A stretch of DNA of 63,450 nucleotides, filler included, from Licmophora abbreviata (taxonomy: Eukaryota): the NCBI GenBank assembly GCA_900291995.1. It is 17 parts of 17 records of this genome, joined end to end, with 100 filler letters (N's around TTAATTAATTAA, not from the genome) between each part and the next. Parts side by side here need not be neighbours in the genome. Positions count along the whole stretch, not along the records: positions 32,758 to 37,916 come from OLMU01003915.1; 16 more parts are not named here. The stretch is one strand, 5' to 3'. Positions within the stretch are counted from its first letter, which is position 1, and every line of letters starts with the position of its first letter. Made by a program: the position numbers and the translations under genes. The notes below the pieces were generated by a model that saw nothing but the letters and a program-made list of their open reading frames with translations, did not search any database and was not told the DNA's origin. This document shows, piece after piece, positions 29,802-55,300 of this stretch.

Positions 29802-30155
29802 GTTGCTTGGAAGGAACTCTGCCACCATGAGCGAGCTGCAATGTAGCCATGTCTACTTTTTAGGCATGATGGGAAAGACATCACTAGCACTAAAAGAGCG
29901 GCTAGTCCACGAAAGCAATAGCATGGAATCAGTCGACGACGAGGTGATCGTGCAGTCTATCGTACCCGCCTGTATTGCGGCTCCCATTAGCTTCCTGCAT
30001 TTCGGATGTACCTCCGGGTTGTCTTATTTCTCTGGCGTTGCTTGATTTCAGACCANNNNNNNNNNNNNNNNNNNNNNNNNNNNNNNNNNNNNNNNNNNNT
30101 TAATTAATTAANNNNNNNNNNNNNNNNNNNNNNNNNNNNNNNNNNNNNNNNNNNN

Positions 30156-33100
30156 AGCCCTTCTGCTGACCATGATCTTGGCCATCCCTATTGGAGGACA
30201 AGGTTTAGTTTCAAAACTTCCCGCGTTCCAAACGTCATCATTGTCACGCCATCACTACAGCTACCGAAATTCAGAGTCATTTTCCCTCCATGTCGCCACC
30301 TCGGACTCTGCATCCACCACTAGCAGTACTCCCTCACCAAGTCAAAGCACTAATAAATTGACTTGCGATGTTCCAATCTTCAACAATGTCATGGCTTGCA
30401 ATCGCGCTGAAATTGCTGTCCGCATCATGCGCGCCGCCACGGAACTCAACGCCGGGACGGTGGCCATTTACGACAAGGAGGACCGCTACTCGCAGCATCG
30501 GTGGGGTGCCGATCGGAGTTTTCAATTGTCACGGACAGAGGAGGCGACGCCCATTTCTGCCTATCTAGATATCAAACAGATCATTCAAATCGCCAAGGAC
30601 AGCAATGTTGATGCGATTCATCCCGGATATGGCTTTCTAAGCGAGTCTCCGGAATTGGCGCAGGCGTGTGAGGATGCGGGCATTACCTTCGTCGGACCCA
30701 CCGTGGAGAATCTCAACATGTTCTCCGATAAGACATCTGCGAGACGGGCAGCGATTGAGGCGGGTGTGCCGGTAGTGCCTGGATCCGATGGCGCCTTGAA
30801 GAACGCCGAGGAAGTTACGACCTTTGTGGAAGACATTGGACTTCCTGTCATTCTGAAGGCCGCCATGGGCGGTGGAGGCAAGGGCATGCGCGTCGTTCGC
30901 AACATGGAAGATCTAGTGCCCTCCTTCGAAGCTGCCAGCTCGGAGGCGCTCGCCAGCTTTGGGGACGGTTCCGTCTTTGTCGAGCGTTTCGTCGATCGAC
31001 CGCGTCATATTGAAGTTCAGATTGTCGGCGACGGTACTGGCAATGTTGTGCACTTGTGGGAGCGCGACTGTTCCATCCAGAGACGTCATCAAAAGGTGAT
31101 TGAGATGGCACCGGCCTGGTCTCTTCCTGACGAACTCCGTGCCGATTTGCACCGCTATGCCATGGATCTGACCTCACGTGCCAACTACAAGAATGCGGGA
31201 ACCGTGGAGTTTCTGGTGGATGCCGAACTTCGTCCGTATTTCATTGAAGTCAATCCTCGTATTCAAGTGGAACATACAGTGACAGAAGAAGTGACGGGTA
31301 TTGATTTGGTGCAGGCGCAGCTCAAGATTGCGGCGGGAGCATCGTTGGAAGAAATCGGACTCATTCAAGAAAACATTGCTCCGCGGTGCGTATTTTAGTG
31401 TGTATGAGACAGAGATGCATGCATTGGATTTTTCCTGAATCAACGCTACTTTTCATTCGAGTGTCTCACCATGCTAGATTACTTTTTCATTTCATGTACA
31501 GTGGTGTCGCCATTCAGTGTCGCGTCACGACGGAAAACGCGGAACGCGATTTCGCCCCCGATACTGGCACTGTCAGTTTGTACCGTCACTCTGCGGGTGC
31601 TGGAGTGCGAATGGACGGAATCGGCTACTCGGGCCTTCGTATTACCCCTTACTTTGATTCTATGATTGTCAAGTACACGGCACGTGGCTCGACATTCCAG
31701 GAGACTGTGGCGCGGATGAAGCGTGTTTTGCAGGAGATGCGTATCCGTGGTGTCAAGACGAATGCATCCTTTCTCTTGAATGTGTTGTCGCACCCGGACT
31801 TTGCGACGGGTATCGTTACTACATCCTTCATTGACGAAAATCCTGACCTCAAAAAGGTGTCGCAGTCGAAATGGGATTTCTCGAATGAAGAACAGGCAGA
31901 CCCGCGCAAGCTGTATCGTACGGAACGCTTCGTCCGGTATCTGGCCAATCTTGCCGTGAATGGACATCCGCCGGAGCTTGGAGCTGATGCGAGCAAAATT
32001 CAACTAGGATCTACTGCAGCCGTTTCTCCTCCGACCATGCCGAAAACAGCGCATGTTGCTGCCCAGGGCGCCGAGGCGAAAGGCATGCGTCATATCTTGT
32101 TGGAGAAGGGCCCTGAAGAATTCGCCAAGGCCGTTCGCGAACACAAAGGATTGCTGCTTATGGACACGACCTGGCGAGATGCGCACCAGTCTTTGTTTGC
32201 TACCCGTATGCGAACGCAGGAGTTTCTGAACTGTGCCGATTTCACCAACCAGGCTCTTGCCAATGCCTTCTCGCTTGAAATGTGGGGTGGGGCTACCTTT
32301 GATGTGGCCATGCGATTTCTCCATGAATGTCCCTGGGAACGTTTGGAGAAGCTACGTGAAGCTGTGCCAGATGTTCCCTTCCAAATGCTGCTTCGTGGCG
32401 CGAATGCAGTTGGATACACAAACTATCCAGACAATGTGGTGTACAAGTTTTGTGCCGAGGCTCAAAAGTCTGGTATCGACGTATTCCGAGTGTTTGATTC
32501 GCTGAACTATATTGAAAATCTCAAGCTGGGAGTAGATGCTGCTGGCTCGGCTGGAGGCTTTGTAGAAGGAGCCATGTCCTACACGGGCGACGTTGCAGAC
32601 CTTTCCAAAGGAAATACACTCTTGAATACTACTTGAAGCTTGCAGAGGAGTTGGTCGNNNNNNNNNNNNNNNNNNNNNNNNNNNNNNNNNNNNNNNNNNN
32701 NTTAATTAATTAANNNNNNNNNNNNNNNNNNNNNNNNNNNNNNNNNNNNNNNNNNNNATACACTCTTGAATACTACTTGAAGCTTGCAGAGGAGTTGGTC
32801 GACATGGGCGTCCATTCTCTTGCTATCAAAGATATGGCTGGACTTTTGACTCCTCGAGCGACCAAGCTTCTGGTGGGAGCCCTCCGCGAGCAGCATCCAG
32901 ATATTCCCATTCATGTCCACACCCACGACACTCCTGGAAGCGGCGTTGCGTCAATGCTGGCAGCCGCAGAGGCTGGAGCTGATATTGTAGATGGTGCCAT
33001 GGACGCCGTCTCTGGACTGACGTCCCAACCGTCCCTGGGTGCGATTGCTGCGAACTTGCGTGGGACGGAGCAGGACACAGGTCTCGACTCGGTGGCACTC

Positions 33101-34232
33101 AACTCTCTTAATACGGTGCGTCTCATTTACAATTTCGCTCCTGCATCAGGATGACCAAAGTGATGTCTAATCATGCAACATTTCTAATCCTCGTCCACAG
33201 TACTGGGAAAACGTGCGATCACTCTATGCTCCCTTCGAGTCTGGACAGCTCTCGGGATCTTCCGACGTATACCAGCACGAAATTCCAGGGGGCCAGTACA
33301 CCAATCTTCTCTTCCAATCCAAGCAACTTGGCTTGACCGATAAGTGGCCCGAAATTAAGCAAAAATACGCTGAAGCAAACGTGGTTCTAGGTGACATTCC
33401 TAAGGTAACTCCTTCTTCCAAGGTTGTTGGAGATTTGGCTCAGTTCATGGTAGCGCAAGACTTGGACGCGCATTCAATCGTCGATCAGGCCGATACTCTG
33501 GCTTTCCCCGACTCGGTCGTGAACTACTTGAAAGGTGACATTGGAGTTCCGCCTGGTGGCTTCCCTGAACCACTTCGCGGCAAGGTTCTCAAGAGTCGTG
33601 GCCTTGACGCGGTTGCTGGAAGACCAGGAGCCTCCCTGCCCGACTATGACTTTGAAGCAGAACGCGAAGCGCTCTCCGAGAAGTACGGCACAGCCGTTAC
33701 GGAAAAGGACCTTCTTTCGTACGCCCTGTATCCAAATGTCTTTGTAGACTGGAAGGAATTCGAAGCTATCTATGGTGAAGTATCGGAACTCCCTACGCAT
33801 CTTTTCTTGAACCCCATGAAACCTGGCGACGAGGTGGAACTCGAAATGAGCAGGGGCAAAATGCTCCTTATTAAGTTGGTCTCCATACAAGATGTCAGCG
33901 AAGAGGGAACACGCATGGTTTCTTTTGAGATTGATGGCGAACAATGGTACATGCCCGTCACCGACCAGGCGTCATTGGAAAGTGGTGGAGCCGTGCGTGA
34001 AAAGTCGGGGGCACCTGGGTCGGTCGGCAGCCCCATGACAGGAGTCATTGTCGGCGTGAAGGTTAAGGCCGGTGATAGGGTCGCGGAAGGCGAGGCCGTG
34101 GCAACACTCTCGGCCATGAAGATGGAAACGTCCATTCCGGCAACGGCCTCAGGAGTCGTCAAGCGTGTCGTGGTAAACGTCGGTGACAAGGTCGAGGGCG
34201 ACGACTTGCTAATGGAAATTGAAGATCAGTAG
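30156..34232 (+). CDS. PYC: Pyruvate carboxylase, plastid-type; introns 31386-31501 and 33116-33200; spacer with 44-bp overlap; 5' end possibly truncated
   Basis: Biotin carboxylase domain ([28 protein letters not shown]), carboxyltransferase domain ([22 protein letters not shown]) and biotinyl AMKM motif. Signal-like N-terminus. Confidence 0.96.
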
Positions 34233-34295: not shown

Positions 34296-35833
34296 CTACA
34301 ACTCTTGCCGCCTTGTCTTCCATGCCGATGCCACAGTGCCATCAAAGTCGAGATTGAGCTGTTGACCCTGAAACCACGATGCCAAGGGTAGGTCTCCTCC
34401 ACGAGCTTGAAATTCACGATCCAATGAATCCAAATAGGCCTGTCTCTCATCCTCAACCAAGTTAACATGTTCGTGCTTCGACTTCACATCCCCAACCCAC
34501 TCTAATAAATTCACCAAATCCCCAAACATCGCATGAACGTACTTGTTATCGCTCCACCGACTGCGAAGACCTTCGCGACGCCGATCCCACGTCGCCGTGT
34601 ATCCCTCTTTGAATTTTTTGTGCAGATAGGGTAAACTGAAGTAGGAAGCAAACCAGCTCAGGTTGGTGGCTTCTTGAGATACAGGACTGACCCGATCCAG
34701 GGCAAGGAATCCCACCAGTATGTATCGCGTTCCACTCGTCACCGCCATACCCTCGTGATGGATTTGCGCCGAATGGGCCACGAGCTGTCCTACCGAAGCG
34801 GGCTGAATGTGTGCAAACGGTGCTTGCGTCAGGCGATTCCAAAACTGCGTACCGCCACCCTCAAAGTCCTGACTCAAGAGGATATTGATGCTAATGTCGC
34901 CATCGTCGGTATGGGTAGCCAGAAATGGACGATCGGTGGCATCATAGCGAACGACAAACATCTGCGTAGGGCAGTGAAATGGTGCATGAGAAACGGCAAA
35001 CACATCCTGCCTCGTGCAAGTACGTACAGACGCCATCCGATACTGCTAGTACTCACATCATTGGCTCGAATTGCGCTACGGCTCACTCCAAACACTCTCT
35101 CCAACAAGGGCGCCAGTCGAGCATCCAGTCGTTCTTGTATATACTCCCGATCCTCTTCTAGAAACGGATCATTCACCAAATTCAAGTCTGTCGTTGGGTA
35201 ATTGTTATGCCGTGTCTTGTGCCATCCATGTGGGGCTTTTAAAAAGTCTTGGATCGTAGTGTTCCGAGGATCGGAGGATGCTTGCAGAATGGCATTCTCG
35301 TGATTTCGGTCTCCTGCCCGATGAGCCATGTCAATGACATATTGGCACTCCTCAGATGTTAGCAGGGGAGCTTGAAAGACCCGACGCGAGACGTACGTAT
35401 TGTTTGAAGACAACAGAATGATTCCAGCCACCGAGAGTATCGACAAGATGGCTGATAGAGCCAGTACCTCGAAATGAATTTCTGCGGCTGGTGAATCCTG
35501 CACCAATGATGACGAGGGAGAAGTACTAGTAGCGTGGTTTAAAGCCTTGGGATCCCTCTTCTCTCCCCTATTTTTGCCGTTCGACACTGTATGTCTCCCC
35601 GATTTTCCATTCGTCGCAGCTATTTCCGCCGTAGTACTGCTGCTGCTGTGTTCGCCGCGCTTGTACAAATACGTTTCTGTCCAGTGCGGAAAGACAACCA
35701 ACCAGAAAACAGTCGCCAGAATCAATGCTGCGCTTAGCACTAGACGTTCTAATGGATAGTTAGGAGGCACCTGTGCTAGAAATTGCTCTCCCGGGAAGCC
35801 AAAGGGAGCGGCAGTGGCGGACGTCGTCGACAT
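34296..35833 (-). CDS. Membrane-anchored 2OG/Fe(II) dioxygenase with lysyl-hydroxylase (PLOD)-like domain, copy A; intron 34962-35056
   Basis: Two N-terminal TM helices. RHNNYPTTD, FVVRY, HTD, DFEGGGTQF and HEGMAVTSGTRYILVGF. Ends RQEL. Confidence 0.85.
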
Positions 35834-36117
35834 GGTGTAGGTATTTCTGGGTCAAATGTTTGTTGCCCTTCATTGGGATGAATGCGAACCCTATCCGGCG
35901 GTTGGTAGATTCGACGAAGATTCTCGTTAAGTACAAAACGTAATTTCATTTATTTGCTTAAATATATGACATGAATGACATTTTTCGAAACCAACTGCCG
36001 AAACGAAAAACATGAAAACATGACCCCACTTTTACTTTTGCCGACGGCTATCTGTTTGGATTCAACATCCTTTCTCGTCGCCACCCTGCCCCCGTCACCC
36101 CATTCTTCGCCTCACTC

Positions 36118-37490
36118 ATGTTGGACGCTCCATTGTTTCCCGGGGAGGACTTTTTGTCGATTGATCTTCCGAATCATGCATCCCAGCGATTCTGGATTTT
36201 AGTGGCGTCTTTGGGGAGTGGAACGCTCTTCTTTTTCATCCTGCCTCTCTTTCTATCAAAACCAAGCGCCAAGGATGGCAAAAAGAGGGAACTTAATCTT
36301 GTGGCTGAAATCAGCTTGACCCTGCTTGGCCTGTTTTGCATGATATTTCTCTTACTCAAGACTTCCAACAATCAAGCATTGGCCCGTACCGTCGTGGAGG
36401 CGCCACTGTTGACGGCCGAGGAATGTCAGTATCTCATCGATATGGCGCATCGCGTAGCTGCCGCGAATGCAGAAAACAACCCCAACGATGATACGCTACA
36501 GAGGATACCGTCGGGCTGGCGGAAAGACCGACATCACGCCTATCCAACGACCGACTTGAATTTGATAGTAGATCCCTTTACCACGGAGGATCGCAGCTAT
36601 ATCGAGAGTTTGTTGAATCGTCGACTGTCACCGCTCTATGAGCGTCTCTGGGGAATCCATGCTGGAGCAGTGCGAGCAAATGATGTGCGTGGTGATGCGC
36701 TACACGAGATGCACTGGCTGTCACGGATGCACGTTGAGCTCACTTGCTTCCTTTTTCTTTCGTTCACTCCCCAGATGTTTATTGTTCGCTACGATGCTGA
36801 CAGGGGACAGCCTTTCTTGAACAAACACACGGACAGTTCGCATATTAGCTTCAATGTCTTATTGAACGACGAATTTGAGGGCGGTGGCACACGATTTCAT
36901 CATCGTCTGCAGCAATCCCACAAGGACGTTCACCCCAGCTCCCCTGGCAATGTGATTCTTAACCCTGCCATTTTGGAACACGAGGGTCTCCCCACGACAA
37001 ATGGCACGCGATATATTTTCGTCGGGTTCACCTCGGTAGATCCATACGATCCATTTCAAAATACCACCAACTCGCTCTCACTCTTCGCGTCCTGGTTGTG
37101 TTTGAATTGGTGCCAAGTGCGATTCGGTGAAGCTTACGATACTCTTACAAATAGAGCAACCAAGAAGAAGGACTGGGCCAACAATCGATACGTTAAGTCT
37201 CTCTTTAGTGACATCCACACACAGTTTACGGCCTTTGGAGATTGGTGGGCGCCGCACAGAGTGTTGCGACTGGTGGACAATCAGGATCGAAACGCGTATT
37301 TGCAAGCAATGGATGTGTACTATGATGCAAGCCATGTCGATCCATCGAAAGGCCGAGCTGATTTGCAAAAAGTGAACAGAAACAAGCAAACTGGTTTGCG
37401 GGACAGCAAGTCTCCATGGACGTCGACGGAACGATTGCCAACGTATGGATGTCGCGGCGTGACAACGAAGATGCGTTCCGAGACTTGTAG
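36118..37490 (+). CDS. Membrane-anchored PLOD-like 2OG/Fe(II) dioxygenase, copy B; intron 36685-36774; apparent frameshift at ~37370
   Basis: RHHAYPTTD, HTD, EFEGGGTRF and HEGLPTTNGTRYIFVGF. The C-terminus homologous to copy A (QANWFAGQQVSMDVDGTIANVWMSRR...FRDL*) lies in another frame ending at 37490. Confidence 0.82.
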
Positions 37491-37513: not shown

Positions 37514-38349
37514 TTAGGAGAGAAATAACTGCCGCAAGTGCGATACTACTCGTGATCTCCATGGCATGCGTGGTGTACCTCGCTTGCTCTTGCTCAATCG
37601 CCGCCGTTTCCGGAAAAAATCTCGCAGCAGGTCCGCACTGGTTTCCTCCTCCACCCCTTTCACAACTTTGCTAATATTGTGAAACGGATGCGGGGCCATC
37701 TCGAGTAGATTCATGCGAGTTTCGACAGCTCCCAATCGTAAGTCGGGTGCGCCGTAAACGACCGTGTCGATTCGGAAGGCCTGACACGCCGCCAGACACA
37801 TGGCACAGGGTTCCAGCGTGCTGTACAGAGTGGTGTTTAGCAAGCGCCAGTTGCGAATGTTTCGTGCACCTTCACGCATGACTTGCAGTTCCGCGTGACT
37901 GGAGGCATCCCAGTCGNNNNNNNNNNNNNNNNNNNNNNNNNNNNNNNNNNNNNNNNNNNNTTAATTAATTAANNNNNNNNNNNNNNNNNNNNNNNNNNNN
38001 NNNNNNNNNNNNNNNNGACGCGATTGTGACCGCGAGCGAGTATTTCAAACGTTCGTTCTGATTTACTGGCTTGTATAGCAGCAGGACGGACCAGAACAGC
38101 TCCAATCGGCACTTCTCCTTCCAAGGCAGCCTTCTGAGCTTCTTCCAGGGCCTTTTCCATGAAGAAGCACTGAGTAAATGTCTCGTTCTGCGCTTGACTA
38201 TGGGAAAGGGTGAAGCGCTCGATACGTCCCGACGACCTCCAGCGTTGGAAGGCCGATTTCACGCTCCAGGAGGAAACTGAATCAACATTCCCAAAACTTA
38301 GTAGAGTGTATATCATGAGGACATATTCCAGTGTAAAAGATAGCCTCAT
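37514..38349 (-). CDS. tadA: tRNA adenosine-34 deaminase (TadA-like), organelle-targeted; interrupted by a spacer
   Basis: FMEKALEEA...GEVPIGAVLV...GHNRV | DASSHAE...WRLLNTTLYSTLEPCAMC...FFRKRR. Confidence 0.9.
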
Positions 38350-48031: not shown

Positions 48032-49135
48032 ATTGTTTTGCGAAAAGTTGTCAAAATCGGCAGATGGGTCCAGTACGCCAGTTCCATTCCAACCTTCCGT
48101 AGCATTCATCATGCGAAAGACTGGATTTCCATCGTAGGCGTAGGCGCAAAAGCCAGAAAATGTATCCACCATGTCGTGCAAGACAACCGGAATCTGAGCC
48201 CAATCGCGTACACCGTGTTGTCCTAGTCCGTTGTCTCTATTGAATAAAAGTTTGGAACAGCCCATTTCAGAAAAGACAAGAGGAATCGATGCATTGTGCA
48301 GTGCCTTCCAAAGAGCATAGTAGCCACTGACGGATTTCCGGTCTTCATTATAATGGAAGGTCTGCAACGACGAGCACCAGGACTCGACATTGATACCAAA
48401 AATGTCAATCGTTGAAGACACATCAGTATCATCCTCGCACGACAGATAGTCGAGAGTCATTTTCATGGCATCTTGGGGTAGGACATCCGCCTTCATGGAA
48501 TCATGTTGTGCTGCATACAATATCGGTAAGGGACGAGGATGAACCAATGATGATTTCTTCATGTGTAGTTTCAAATCACGGGCGTAGGCACGAATGCACG
48601 GTGCCGCCAACCAGGAATCCAAGGAATTCATGACTTCATTCCCAATGACACCTGCAAGGACATTCGGATACTGCACAAAAGTATCCACACAGTGCTTGCC
48701 GTACTCATAGAGAGACGGTGGGTAGCAGTGTGGTGCTTCCTTGGTTCGATCCAAGACTCCACTCCCTACAGGTGCAGTAAGTGGGACAACCACGTATACG
48801 CCCAGCTCCGCGGCTCGATTCAGAAAGTCAGAGTAGTCTTCCTGCACACAGTCCATTGTATAGATCCGAATCATGTTGATGTCGGTTTCAGTTGCGAGCT
48901 GTTCCAAGACAGCAATCCAACCCGTGGCGTCATAGCCGGTATCGTGTTCTTTTGTAACGGGAGCCGTCGGAAAGGCGATTCCTTGCATAAGGAAGCGACT
49001 GCTGTCACTATCTCGAACGAGATAGCGCCCTTCCACTCGTATAAGATCATCTGGACCAATACGGAGATAAGTAGAGTGGGATGAGTTGGTAGCTCCTCTA
49101 GTGCTGATCGTCGCTTTCGTAGTGTTTTCGCTCAT
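48032..49135 (-). CDS. GH72 beta-1,3-glucanosyltransferase (Gas/Gel/Phr-like), 3' truncated
   Basis: RFLMQGIAF, INMIRIY, GVYVVVPL, YPNVLAGVIGNEV, ARDLK, DYLSC, IDIFGINVESWC and IPLVFSEMGC. Both catalytic Glu positions are present. Confidence 0.85.
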
Positions 49136-49400
49136 GGTCGCGTGGTCGTCGCATGGAATCTTTGTATCATATCATTAAATATCTTTGACAATATCTTNNN
49201 NNNNNNNNNNNNNNNNNNNNNNNNNNNNNNNNNNNNNNNNNTTAATTAATTAANNNNNNNNNNNNNNNNNNNNNNNNNNNNNNNNNNNNNNNNNNNNAAT
49301 CTTCGTAAAATATGTTTGACAATATCTTTCAGTCACACAAGCGCGCACCTCCCGGATCTGGGCGCGCGAGAACCCCACGAACGACCGGACTCTCACGAAA

Positions 49401-52381: not shown

Positions 52382-55300
52382 ATGACGATTCTCCTGCCGG
52401 TCGTCGCGATTCTCTTCCTTGGAGAGCTTGTTTGTGGCCACAACCACCACCATACGCGCCCATTTCTCCGACAACATGATTCTCGAGACCTCAAGGAGAA
52501 AAAGAAGGGGATTTTGTCGCTAGTCTACGAGCAGGATGACGCTGCCGAAGCGTCCAATAGCGCGACTATCTGTGGAGCGAAGGATCAATCGATAGTAGAA
52601 ATGGAGAAGCAATATGCCAATCTGAAGCTATACCGCAAGAAGCAAAAGGGATCTGGAAGGAGAAATGTTCTCGACTGCAATGGGTGCATTGAGATTCCGG
52701 TTCACTTCCATATTATCACCGGTATTGGAGTGAACGCCATCGAATATGGCAGTGTGACCGACCAACGGGTCAGTGCTCAGATAGAAGTTCTCAACGATGG
52801 GTTTGAAGGTACCCCATTCAGCTTCGTTCTTGTCAACACCACGCGAACGCAAGATGCCAGCCTCTTTTTCCTCGAAGACTCCTTTGGCAACGACTATGCC
52901 ACGATGCAGAGTGCGTTGGGTGGTCAACTACGAGCGGGAGATCGGATGACGTTAAACGTCTTCAGTGCTGGACTTCTTTCTGCCACACTGGGCATTTCCA
53001 GCTTTCCTTCCGGAAATGACGGCAGTCGAGATGGAGTTTATATCGACCACTGTACCATCCCGGGCGGAAATTGCCGGCCTTTCAACTCGGGAGGCATTCT
53101 CATTCACGAAGTCGGCCACTGGCTAGGTCTATTTCATGTGTTTCAGGGTGGTGTAAGTACATTTCCCGTGCTGTACTTGAGGGCGCAAGCCGAGTGTGCG
53201 CTGGAGTGCTCATTGGTTTCTTTCTGTCTCTTCGTCCCGTGGTAGTGCAACGCCGAGCACGGCGACTATGTCATTGACACAGCTCCTCAAGGATACGCCT
53301 TTGTCTCCTGCGGGGACCAAAATACATGTCCACTCTCAACCGACCCTGATCCATACGACAATTACATGGGATACGCGATGGAGTGCCTCGAGACTTTCAC
53401 CCCAGGACAGATTGAGCGTATGCACGACGAATGGATGGTCTATCGAAACGGCACCCAGCCGTGTGCCGAAGACGAAGGCGTCCTTTCAGTCGAGCTCAAA
53501 CTCGATGACAATCCCGAGCAAAACCAGTGGATGCTTGCTCGTGCCAATGGTCAAGTGATGAGCCTTTCGGTGTTTGGAGCGTACGAAGAGAATCGTGTCA
53601 TGAGCTCGGAAATATGCGTCCCTTACGACACTGCTCTTTTCTTTTCCATTGAAGACTCTGTCAGTGACGGTCTTACGTCGACTGCAGATTCTTTCTTTCG
53701 TCTCCGCGTGGATGGCAAGCTCATCAAAGATGATCGAACCTTTGGTCGTCGAGGCGCAGCCGCATTTACAATGACGAACGACGACGGTTGTCCTATGGAG
53801 CAAGGCTTGACCCAGATTATGCTTCTCCTTGACGACAACCCAGCCGAAATATCATGGAAGATTGTCACTGACGACAACCAGCTTGTGTACGAAGAAGCCG
53901 AGTACAGCATATTCAACGACGCAAGTTACTACAAGCAGGCATCAGTCGTCAGGGAAATGTGTCTCCCAGTTGGCAGCTATCAACTGATAATTGACTATGC
54001 GGACAATTGGCTTCAAAACACCACCCAGGACGAGGAACCATTCTATCGAGTGTCTGTCAACAATGACGATGGCGAAGATAATCTCTTCAGGTCTGGGGCT
54101 TCGAGGATTTGGTCATTTGATGTCACAGCAACGTCGGTTCCCTCTTCTTCGCCGACTCTTGTGGTGTCAGTGGAGCCATCCATCACGCCTAGCGATGGTC
54201 CCAGCAGCTCACCTTCAGTACACAGATCCTCCGTACCAACAATCGTACTATCCACGGCCCCGTCTTTCGAAACAAGTAGCTCTCCTACAGTTGACAAGTC
54301 GGCGTCACCATCAGTGATGGATTCACGGTCGCCAACACTGTCTCCGTCAAACTGGCCAACTAGAACACCAAGTTTCAGTCCGTCAGCTGGTCCCACCGAC
54401 AGACAAACCCTTTCTCCAACATCCATGTCTTCTTTAGCACCGAGCACAACGGAATCTGACACTCCGACGCTTGAACCGAGCATCGCACCGACGGCAACGC
54501 CTACATCTCAGCCAAGTCTGGAGCCGACGCCAGACCCGACACAAGAACCTACACCAGTATCCAGTACAGCGCCAACGCATAGTTTGACATCATCAGTGCC
54601 TTCGAGCTCGCCTTCCGTCGAGCCTTCAACGACCCCGAGTGCCACTCCTAGCTTGATGATATCGTCTGCACCTAGTCCGAGCTCAAGTGAGTCGCCGACC
54701 TACTCAATGTCATCAAGTCCAACGTCTGAGCCTACTCGTGAACCGAGCATCGCACCGACGGCAACGCCTACATCCCAGCCAAGTCTGGAGCCAACGTCAG
54801 ACCCGACACAAAAACCTACACAAGAACCTACACCGGTACCAACGCCAGGGCCTACATCTCAACCAACGCTCTTGCCCACCCCAGAAACAACCCATGATCC
54901 GACATCTCATCCACAGGAGCCAACTTCCGCTTCGTCCGCAACTCCTACGTCGGTCCCAGACCAAGGTCTCAGAAATGATGACCTTGAGACAAATATTCCC
55001 CATGCTTTTATCAACGAGGTAAGGATGATCCATCGGTGAATCTTCCCTCTCCATTTTCAACCGATATGCTAACAACTCATCTCTCCATCTTTTCAGGTCC
55101 ATTACGACAACATCGGAAATGACGTTGGAGAATTTGTTGAAATCGCTGGCCTAGCGGGTACGGACCTCACTGGCTGGACAGTGTCTTTTTATAGTTTTTT
55201 GTCGGATCTGGGTGACTACGGAGTCCATCGAAGTATCAATCTGGGTGACGCAACCAATCCAATAATCCCAGACCAAGAGAATGGATTTGGGACCATTTCA

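What the first reader, a model, noticed from the sequence alone, without database searches (positions are those of the whole stretch)
34296..37490. Head-to-head pair of membrane-anchored lysyl-hydroxylase-like dioxygenases with KDEL-like tails: candidate silaffin or cell-wall protein hydroxylases
Seen: two paralogs start 284 bp apart on opposite strands. They share two N-terminal TM helices, the same intron position (RAND|MF), the HxD...H iron triad and 2OG-binding Arg, and they end RQEL and (after frame correction) FRDL. Known: HEGLPTTxGTRY...VDP closely matches the C-terminal domain of procollagen lysyl hydroxylases (PLOD). Diatoms have no collagen, but their silaffins carry delta-hydroxylysine and hydroxylated prolines, and I know of no enzyme assigned to these steps. 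Inference: an old inverted duplication under a shared AT-rich bidirectional promoter, possibly a co-expressed or heterodimeric secretory-pathway hydroxylase for frustule or adhesive proteins.
Basis: partly seen in the sequence, partly recalled or inferred. Interest (0 to 1): 0.72.

Follow-up and report, generated by a model that had tools for sequence, protein, structure and literature searches.

The report
Diatom membrane-anchored lysine-hydroxylase-like enzyme pair
Two old, back-to-back copies of a diatom enzyme anchored in the membrane of the protein-export compartment, related to the enzymes that hydroxylate lysine in collagen, and a testable but unproven candidate for the missing enzyme that hydroxylates lysines in the proteins that build the diatom glass shell.

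Summary
Observation confirmed: two paralogs (37% identical, 284 nt between ATGs), each with a two-helix membrane hairpin, the same RAND|MF intron and an intact Fe/2OG site. Gene B's frame break is probably an assembly error. They belong to a diatom-wide family with a single T. pseudonana ortholog (XP_002291892/B8C7H4). The K/R-rich loop (85 of 87 members) places the catalytic domain in the lumen; 65 of 87 end in [DE]L, only 3 in a canonical KDEL pattern. The only significant solved relatives are lysyl hydroxylases (LH3, mimivirus L230), yet the family is not PLOD (no glycosyltransferase domain; AU test rejects a joint clade, p=0.0025) nor OGFOD2. It sits in a wider protist/virus PLOD-like group, some members of which are fused to COLGALT-like glycosyltransferases. 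Best reading: an ER-luminal protein-lysine 5-hydroxylase for secreted, probably wall, proteins (0.42). Against: the T. pseudonana ortholog appears absent from two silicon-response gene lists; a lipid substrate is possible. The head-to-head layout was seen in no other locus, and heterodimer or co-expression has no support. The value lies in the family, not the pairing.

The parts
35057..35833 (-). Gene A exon 1: acidic N-terminus, TM1, K/R-rich loop, TM2, first part of the dioxygenase domain with GW..RH..YPTTDL
35687..35743 (-). Gene A TM1 (residues 31-49)
   Evidence: hydropathy 2.5
35411..35467 (-). Gene A TM2 (residues 123-141)
   Evidence: hydropathy 2.7
34962..35056 (-). Gene A intron, 95 nt, GT-AG, phase 0 at RAND|MF
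   Evidence: same site in loci L016, L017, L036
34296..34961 (-). Gene A exon 2: beta-helix core (Y265, H276, D278, H328, R338; HTD-DGD subtype), family-specific C-terminal helical domain, tail RQEL
   Evidence: (PF13640 24.4 bits, under the 27 cut-off)
35834..36117 (.). 284-nt divergent spacer, 43.7% GC, AT-rich core about 35914-36013; promoter function not shown
36118..36684 (+). Gene B exon 1: N-terminus, TM1 (36196-36252), short basic loop, TM2 (36298-36354), first part of the dioxygenase domain
36685..36774 (+). Gene B intron, 90 nt, GT-AG, phase 0 at RAND|MF
   Evidence: appears as a 30-residue insertion against 40 homologs
36775..37490 (+). Gene B exon 2: beta-helix core (Y195, H207, D209, H258, R268; HTD-SSH subtype), C-terminal domain, tail FRDL after the frame break
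   Evidence: (PF13640 29.7 bits)
37362..37379 (+). Frame break in gene B (one base short; A5 run at 37367-37371); probable assembly error, a short 56- or 65-nt intron is the weaker alternative

Best explanation
A and B are old paralogs of a diatom-wide family of ER (early secretory pathway) membrane enzymes. The acidic N-terminus and the Fe(II)/2-oxoglutarate dioxygenase domain face the lumen, a K/R-rich loop between two helices stays in the cytosol, amphipathic C-terminal helices seat the domain on the membrane, and an acidic-Leu C-terminus probably helps retrieval. The enzyme uses O2, 2OG and Fe(II) to hydroxylate C5 of peptidyl lysine in secreted proteins as they enter the lumen, giving the delta-hydroxylysine that is later phosphorylated or glycosylated in silaffins and other wall or adhesive proteins. 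Shown here: gene structures, invariant catalytic residues, fold, family range, charge bias. Inferred: luminal side, retrieval, lysine as substrate, wall proteins as clients. The back-to-back arrangement is a leftover of an inverted duplication, not a demonstrated functional unit.
For: Catalytic H, D, H invariant in 118 of 118 family sequences, 2OG-binding Tyr and Arg in 117 of 118 (residue roles from PMC6082870). A family profile against all PDB sequences finds only LH3 (E 9e-21) and mimivirus L230 (3e-15); no other oxygenase at E<=1. Foldseek ranks LH3 entries 1-9; AlphaFold model pLDDT 92.7, pTM 0.91. With fish PLOD2 as query, gene B is the best match in the own genome (3e-11) and gene A third of 5. 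Domain relatives in the same wider group are fused to a GT25 domain whose best PDB match is procollagen galactosyltransferase 1 (P0466, P0469) or to a SET domain (P0467), both lysine-linked partners. Loop K/R fraction exceeds that of the N-terminus in 85 of 87 two-helix members (19.2% vs 6.5%). 65 of 87 complete tails end [DE]L against 0.8% background, across different tail lengths; the genome has two KDEL-receptor-family genes and a DDEL-ending Hsp70. Silaffins enter the ER and carry delta-hydroxylated lysine in C. fusiformis and T. pseudonana (PMC4557024, passages). No PLOD glycosyltransferase domain was found in the genome (weak negative); proline 4-hydroxylation has its own enzymes.
Against: The family does not group with PLOD/L230 (AU p=0.0025), so function transfer crosses a long branch. 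The LH capping loop is about 10 residues shorter and has no Arg599 equivalent. In the wide structural search LH3 and L230 (Z 13.2) tie with unrelated 2OG oxygenases (Z 13.4-12.3). The T. pseudonana ortholog is apparently not among 485 valve-synthesis genes nor among 6,689 Si-regulated genes (accession mapping recalled); a trimethyllysine dioxygenase and two P4Hs are on the first list. Sequons give no support for a luminal side (0.11 per Asn, lower than in the loop). Only 3 of 87 tails fit the classical KDEL pattern and 38 of 65 have Phe at -4, which could be structural. Other PLOD-like genes of this genome start with hydrophobic leaders (L062, L064, L008) and are rival candidates. No expression data for this organism.
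Confidence: 0.42

Rival explanations
1. Luminal membrane-surface hydroxylase of a lipid-like substrate (GPI anchor, sphingolipid or betaine lipid, lipid-linked glycan): the hairpin and amphipathic helices hold the active site at the bilayer, as in bacterial membrane-anchored 2OG lipid hydroxylases such as LpxO (recalled).
For: Rigid hairpin-plus-domain model (pTM 0.91); conserved aromatic segment LSxFASWLSxPW and a strongly amphipathic helix (moment 0.46 in 68 of 69 rows); no Si-linked regulation seen; C-terminal domain has no look-alike.
Against: Nearest characterised relatives act on peptidyl lysine; GT25 and SET fusions in the wider group.
Confidence: 0.2
2. Luminal protein hydroxylase whose clients are not silica proteins (general secretory proteins, adhesive or gliding mucilage proteins) or whose target residue is neither Lys nor Pro; the raphid-expanded A subtype could serve adhesion.
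For: Apparently constitutive in T. pseudonana; the A subtype holds only raphid names among named members and several A-type paralogs share one contig length in another genome.
Against: No client shown; the family was named only in silicifying algae and silaffins are the known diatom carriers of hydroxylysine.
Confidence: 0.16
3. A prolyl hydroxylase that supplies the second (3-) hydroxyl of the 3,4-dihydroxyproline of diatom wall proteins.
For: Dihydroxyproline is general in diatom walls (PMC5501833, passage) and I found no enzyme assigned; luminal topology fits; P4Hs share the fold (Z 11-12.7).
Against: No prolyl hydroxylase among PDB sequence hits at E<=1; 2OG is bound through Tyr/Arg as in LH, and identity to prolyl hydroxylase structures is 15-21% against 27-32% to LH3/L230.
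Confidence: 0.12
4. The hairpin is inserted the other way round: both termini are cytosolic, the tail is structural, and the enzyme acts on cytosolic substrates like most soluble members of the wider PLOD-like group.
For: No signal peptide; sequons not enriched in the domain; the last residues are ordered in the model (pLDDT 88); many relatives in the wider group are soluble.
Against: Strong positive-inside bias of the loop (85 of 87) and terminal [DE]L kept at varying distance from the upstream motif.
Confidence: 0.08

Closest known systems
Human LH3/PLOD3 lysyl hydroxylase domain (PDB 6fxk, 8zgc) and PLOD1/2
   Same: Double-stranded beta-helix, H-x-D...H triad, Tyr/Arg 2OG pocket, PTxD motif, FVVRY and HEGLPTT.GTRY motifs; 37% identity over 126 columns by profile comparison with fish PLOD2; ER-lumen setting (inferred).
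   Different: No glycosyltransferase domains; two-helix membrane anchor; capping loop about 10 residues shorter without Arg599; Cys691 is Thr; dimer pocket only partly kept; about 130-residue C-terminal domain of no known family; separate clade.
Mimivirus L230 lysyl hydroxylase (PDB 6ax6, 9nev)
   Same: Second-best solved relative (E 3e-15; Z 13.2, rmsd 2.9 over 159 residues).
   Different: L230 is soluble, glycosyltransferase-fused and groups with PLOD.
Uncharacterised protist/virus-like 'GW..RH..YPTTD' PLOD-like dioxygenases (Achlya ankyrin fusion P0082; GT25 fusions P0466/P0469; SET fusion P0467; TPR fusions)
   Same: The diatom family nests among them (89/69 support) and shares their short loop.
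   Different: They lack the hairpin-plus-C-terminal-domain architecture (P0081 has membrane helices but another C-terminus); no function known to me.
OGFOD2-like proteins (PF25238)
   Same: Same wider PLOD-related superfamily.
   Different: No PF25238 match for the family while the genome's own L064 matches at 7e-24; separate clade.
tpSTK1, ER-associated silaffin kinase; animal transmembrane P4H-TM
   Same: Works-like analogues: membrane-associated luminal modifying enzymes (tpSTK1 from PMC4557024; P4H-TM 6tp5 Z 11.7).
   Different: Other chemistry or family; tpSTK1 is up-regulated at valve formation, this family apparently not.

Membership tests
Fe(II)/2OG dioxygenase superfamily | H-x-D...H triad and 2OG-binding Arg in a double-stranded beta-helix | tested here: met
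   118 of 118 (H, D, H), 117 of 118 (Y, R); fold; PF13640 above cut-off for gene B, just under for gene A exon 2
PLOD/LH procollagen lysyl hydroxylases | LH-type catalytic domain as nearest solved relative | tested here: met
PLOD/LH procollagen lysyl hydroxylases | N-terminal glycosyltransferase domains (PF25342) | tested here: not met
   no such domain in A, B or homologs; PLOD2 control P0086 scores 1.8e-115
PLOD/LH procollagen lysyl hydroxylases | One clade with PLOD and L230 | tested here: not met
   AU test, 21 rows against 13, 179 columns, p=0.0025; separate again with 36 rows
PLOD/LH procollagen lysyl hydroxylases | Capping loop 590-610 with Arg599 and second Fe site (H595, D597, D611, H613) | tested here: not met
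   Trp-to-PTxD spacing 9 residues against 20 in PLOD-type P0473/P0474; D611 kept (117 of 118), H613 is Asn (105 of 118); features from PMC6082870
PLOD/LH procollagen lysyl hydroxylases | Tail-to-tail dimer through Leu715 in an aromatic pocket (F639, Y642, T672, F673) | tested here: inconclusive
   In the alignment L715 stays hydrophobic and F639 aromatic, but Y642 is small, F673 is Ile, T672 is His (B) or Asp (A), and two residues beside L715 are missing; no complex model was obtained
PLOD/LH procollagen lysyl hydroxylases | C5 hydroxylation of peptidyl lysine | not testable with these tools
   needs an assay
OGFOD2-like (PF25238) | PF25238 match and grouping with OGFOD2-like proteins | tested here: not met
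Prolyl 4-hydroxylases | Sequence kinship to solved P4Hs | tested here: not met
   no P4H among 17 PDB hits at E<=1; two P4H-like rows fell inside the family on a very long branch in the quick tree and were left out afterwards
KDEL-receptor clients | C-terminal [KRHQSA][DENQ]EL (pattern recalled from PROSITE) | tested here: inconclusive
   Gene A RQEL fits, gene B FRDL does not; 3 of 87 fit, 45 end EL, 65 end [DE]L; receptor reads -1 Leu, -2 Glu, -3 Asp (PMC8248988, passages)
KDEL-receptor clients | C-terminus in the lumen | tested here: inconclusive
   positive-inside bias 85 of 87 supports it, sequons do not; prediction only

The most novel reading that the evidence does not exclude
This family is the long-missing silaffin lysyl 5-hydroxylase: a non-PLOD branch of the lysyl-hydroxylase superfamily that, in the ancestor of diatoms and their silicified sister group, gained a membrane hairpin and a new C-terminal domain to work in the ER on silica-forming proteins, convergently with animal PLODs on collagen; the raphid A subtype is a duplicate with a changed residue beside the active site and changed clients.
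Probability: 0.3. Interest if true: 0.8.

Novelty: new variant of a known kind. Interest (0 to 1): 0.52.

Why it matters
Delta-hydroxylysine, and its trimethylated and phosphorylated forms, has been known in diatom walls for decades, and nine full-text searches turned up no enzyme assigned to it. The family gives one concrete candidate with a single ortholog in the genetically tractable T. pseudonana (XP_002291892.1, UniProt B8C7H4), so one knockout and one peptide assay settle the question. If right, it adds a step to silica morphogenesis, a tool for making native-like silaffins, and a second origin of ER lysyl hydroxylation. If the substrate is a lipid, it would still be a new luminal chemistry in diatoms. 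The similarity to PLOD is already visible in automatic names of the Fistulifera and Seminavis orthologs, and the gene pairing itself is ordinary.

Tried and rejected
Conserved head-to-head pair: 0 of 32 family loci from metagenomes held a second copy within the fetched DNA; 15 had at least 2.2 kb before the match, several of them near-duplicates, and only about three were A-type, so this is a weak negative. No neighbour of the pair recurs beside the family gene elsewhere. Recent inverted duplication: rejected; DNA similarity is limited to short coding motifs, A and B lie in different supported clades and the shared intron also occurs in 3 of 21 scored loci from other species. Real pseudogene for B: unlikely; tail conserved, read-through would run antisense into the deaminase gene, same defect in pyruvate carboxylase. 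Second intron at the break: possible (56 or 65 nt) but it lacks a pyrimidine tract, and the closest homolog P0001 has a long insert there. Sequon test for topology: no support. Expression: no RNA holder listed, so no reads were laid. Single-sequence fold of gene A exon 2 failed (pLDDT 38) and was not searched. Atlas: weak look-alikes among haptophyte, chlorophyte and viral 2OG clusters; none for the C-terminal domain. The first family tree run did not finish and was redone with FastTree. Earlier findings: three look-ups returned nothing. A Plant Journal paper on diatom lysine modifications (recalled) is not held; subscription papers and bioRxiv supplements could not be seen and may name a candidate. 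One record labelled Alexandrium tamarense sits in the 90% cluster of T. pseudonana; I take it for contamination but did not test that. Presence in Phaeodactylum and in named Parmales was not established.
Full report
The window is a chain of short contigs joined by N-linkers; the pair lies on one contig, G000:C3915. Gene A runs on the minus strand from ATG 35833 to the stop at 34296, with a 95-nt GT-AG intron; it encodes 480 residues ending RQEL. Gene B runs on the plus strand from ATG 36118 with a 90-nt intron. Both introns fall between RAND and MF, and the ATGs are 284 nt apart. The proteins are 37% identical. Each has two hydrophobic helices before the catalytic domain, and each keeps the iron triad and the 2OG-binding Tyr and Arg. 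The spacer is 43.7% GC with one AT-rich core; nothing here shows promoter activity.

Gene B changes frame near 37370. The tail in the other frame (WFAGQQ...FRDL) matches the conserved family end, and its stop lies 24 nt from the stop of a convergent deaminase gene. One extra base is needed, and an A5 run sits at the spot. The pyruvate carboxylase gene 4.7 kb away is also one base short in an A-run. I read the break as an assembly error; a 56- or 65-nt intron is a weaker alternative. No sequencing run was listed to check it.

The genes belong to a family. A search with gene B gave 91 proteins, 79 of them at E<=7e-33 and then a gap to 1e-13; the exhaustive search found 94 clusters at E<=1e-30. 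Named members are centric and pennate diatoms: Thalassiosira, Conticribra, Skeletonema, Cyclotella, Minutocellus, Ditylum, Attheya, Leptocylindrus, Fistulifera, Seminavis, Epithemia, Amphora, Pseudo-nitzschia; one Alexandrium-labelled record lies inside the T. pseudonana cluster. The T. pseudonana ortholog is XP_002291892.1 / B8C7H4. A divergent intron-less ortholog (P0128, loci L030-L032) keeps both helices and the C-terminal domain but not the tail; its neighbours look to me like Parmales genes, which is recalled and untested. An AlphaFold model of the homolog P0002 is confident throughout (pLDDT 92.7, pTM 0.91): hairpin, beta-helix domain, then about 130 residues of aromatic and amphipathic helices with no look-alike.

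The duplication is old. Gene A falls with Fistulifera, Seminavis, Epithemia, Amphora and Pseudo-nitzschia (98/97), a subtype that mostly reads HTD-x-x-D; gene B falls with T. pseudonana, Minutocellus and Attheya (98/93), reading HTD-SSH. The differing residue is the position of LH3 Thr672. The shared intron also occurs in 3 of 21 scored loci of other species, so it predates the pair. None of 32 family loci from metagenomes held a second copy, and no neighbour was shared; few of these were A-type with long flanks, so the test is weak. Divergent genes with short spacers are common in compact diatom genomes (own knowledge).

Topology. There is no signal peptide. In 87 members with two helices the loop is 19.2% Lys/Arg against 6.5% for the N-terminus, and the bias holds in 85 of 87. 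By the positive-inside rule the loop is cytosolic and both ends luminal. Of 87 complete tails 65 end in [DE]L (background 0.8%), at varying distance from the upstream motif, but only 3 fit the classical KDEL pattern and 38 have Phe at -4. The genome has two KDEL-receptor-family genes and a DDEL-ending Hsp70. Sequons give no support. A luminal domain is likely, retrieval by the tail plausible.

Chemistry. The triad is invariant in 118 of 118 sequences, so this is an active dioxygenase. A family profile finds, among solved structures, only LH3 (9e-21) and mimivirus L230 (3e-15); Foldseek agrees, while the wide alignment search ties them with other 2OG oxygenases. In the own genome gene B is the best match to PLOD2. 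Still the family is not PLOD: no glycosyltransferase domain, a shorter capping loop without Arg599, a partly lost dimer pocket, and a joint clade with PLOD/L230 is rejected (p=0.0025, after leaving out two long-branch P4H-like rows, two rows without a scorable domain and several others). It is not OGFOD2 either. It nests in a broad group of uncharacterised PLOD-like domains from protists and probable viruses, including the oomycete Achlya. Within that group P0466 and P0469 are fused to a GT25 domain whose best solved match is procollagen galactosyltransferase 1 (5e-9), and P0467 to a SET domain. Similar GT25 fusions occur on the PLOD side (P0087, L045). This makes peptidyl lysine the most economical ancestral substrate; GT25 also includes bacterial LPS enzymes, so the hint is indirect.

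Link to silica. Silaffins enter the ER and carry delta-hydroxylated, phosphorylated lysine in C. fusiformis and T. pseudonana (PMC4557024, passages). Nine searches of the library found no enzyme assigned to this step and no paper on these accessions; term searches in PMC13403384, PMC13659343, PMC10328945, PMC13643027, PMC4742977 and bioRxiv 2021.09.18.460806 showed nothing relevant. Proline 4-hydroxylation has its own enzymes: at least 10 annotated P4Hs in T. pseudonana (PMC5501833 supplement rows). Against a silica role: among the 485 valve-synthesis genes of PMC3478156 the InterPro-flagged 2OG oxygenases are two P4Hs, an Impact fusion and a trimethyllysine dioxygenase, none of them this protein (supplement file 6; file 13 not searched). 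In the 6,689 Si-regulated genes of PMC5501833 the expected mRNA accession is absent while its neighbours are present, on an accession offset that I recall and could not verify. A resident ER enzyme need not be regulated, but co-expression is not there. Other PLOD-like genes in this genome have hydrophobic leaders and remain rivals.

Verdict. A real, intact pair of a diatom-wide, apparently unstudied family of membrane-anchored, probably luminal Fe/2OG hydroxylases (about 0.85 for that much). It works like a lysyl hydroxylase with probability near 0.5, on wall or other secreted proteins 0.42; lipid substrate 0.2, other clients or residues 0.16, proline 0.12, cytosolic 0.08. It is a new variant of a known kind, not a PLOD.

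Noticed in passing
window 30112-34232: Pyruvate carboxylase gene spanning an N-linker; the two contig ends overlap by about 41 nt and the first carries a one-base-short A-run near 32612 that shifts the frame, a sign of homopolymer errors in this assembly.
   Followed up: yes
window 37514-38300 (-): tRNA adenosine deaminase-like gene, split by an N-linker, ending 24 nt from the gene B stop; pyruvate carboxylase ends 63 nt from the gene A stop, so both 3' ends are tightly convergent.
   Followed up: partly
whole window: 16 linkers of N44-TTAATTAATTAA-N44 join short contigs; order across linkers is scaffolding, not read sequence.
   Followed up: yes
G000:C3096, C1257, C2432, C1692, C21, C6241, C6281, C1483 (L062, L008, L064, L005, L069, L006, L072, L066): At least eight further PLOD/OGFOD2-like dioxygenase genes in the genome; L062 and L008 carry a leader peptide and TPR repeats, L064 is OGFOD2-like.
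   Followed up: partly
L030:3888-5336 (P0128), P0075: Divergent intron-less orthologs with the full architecture but no acidic-Leu tail; possibly from Parmales (recalled from neighbouring genes, untested).
   Followed up: partly
P0466, P0468, P0469, P0467, P0436-P0465: Unnamed proteins joining the short-loop PLOD-like domain to a COLGALT-like GT25 domain, to a SET domain, or to a long repeated N-terminal region in a 750-790-residue virus-like family.
   Followed up: partly
P0157, P0272, P0147 and P0053, P0299: A-type paralogs that share identical longest-contig lengths (2,919,721 and 1,410,145), suggesting several copies on one chromosome in another diatom.
   Followed up: no
T. pseudonana Thaps3 6667 (PMC3478156 supplement): A trimethyllysine dioxygenase is on the valve-synthesis gene list; carnitine pathway by annotation, but worth testing as a rival source of hydroxylated trimethyllysine.
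   Followed up: no
window 53246-55039 (+) and 48032-49171 (-): A 597-codon frame with PT repeats (possible wall or surface protein) and a GH72 glucanosyltransferase.
   Followed up: no
G000:C4860, C2071, C1137, C1468 (L091-L094): Four GT25-family genes in the genome, possible partners for glycosylating hydroxylysine.
   Followed up: no
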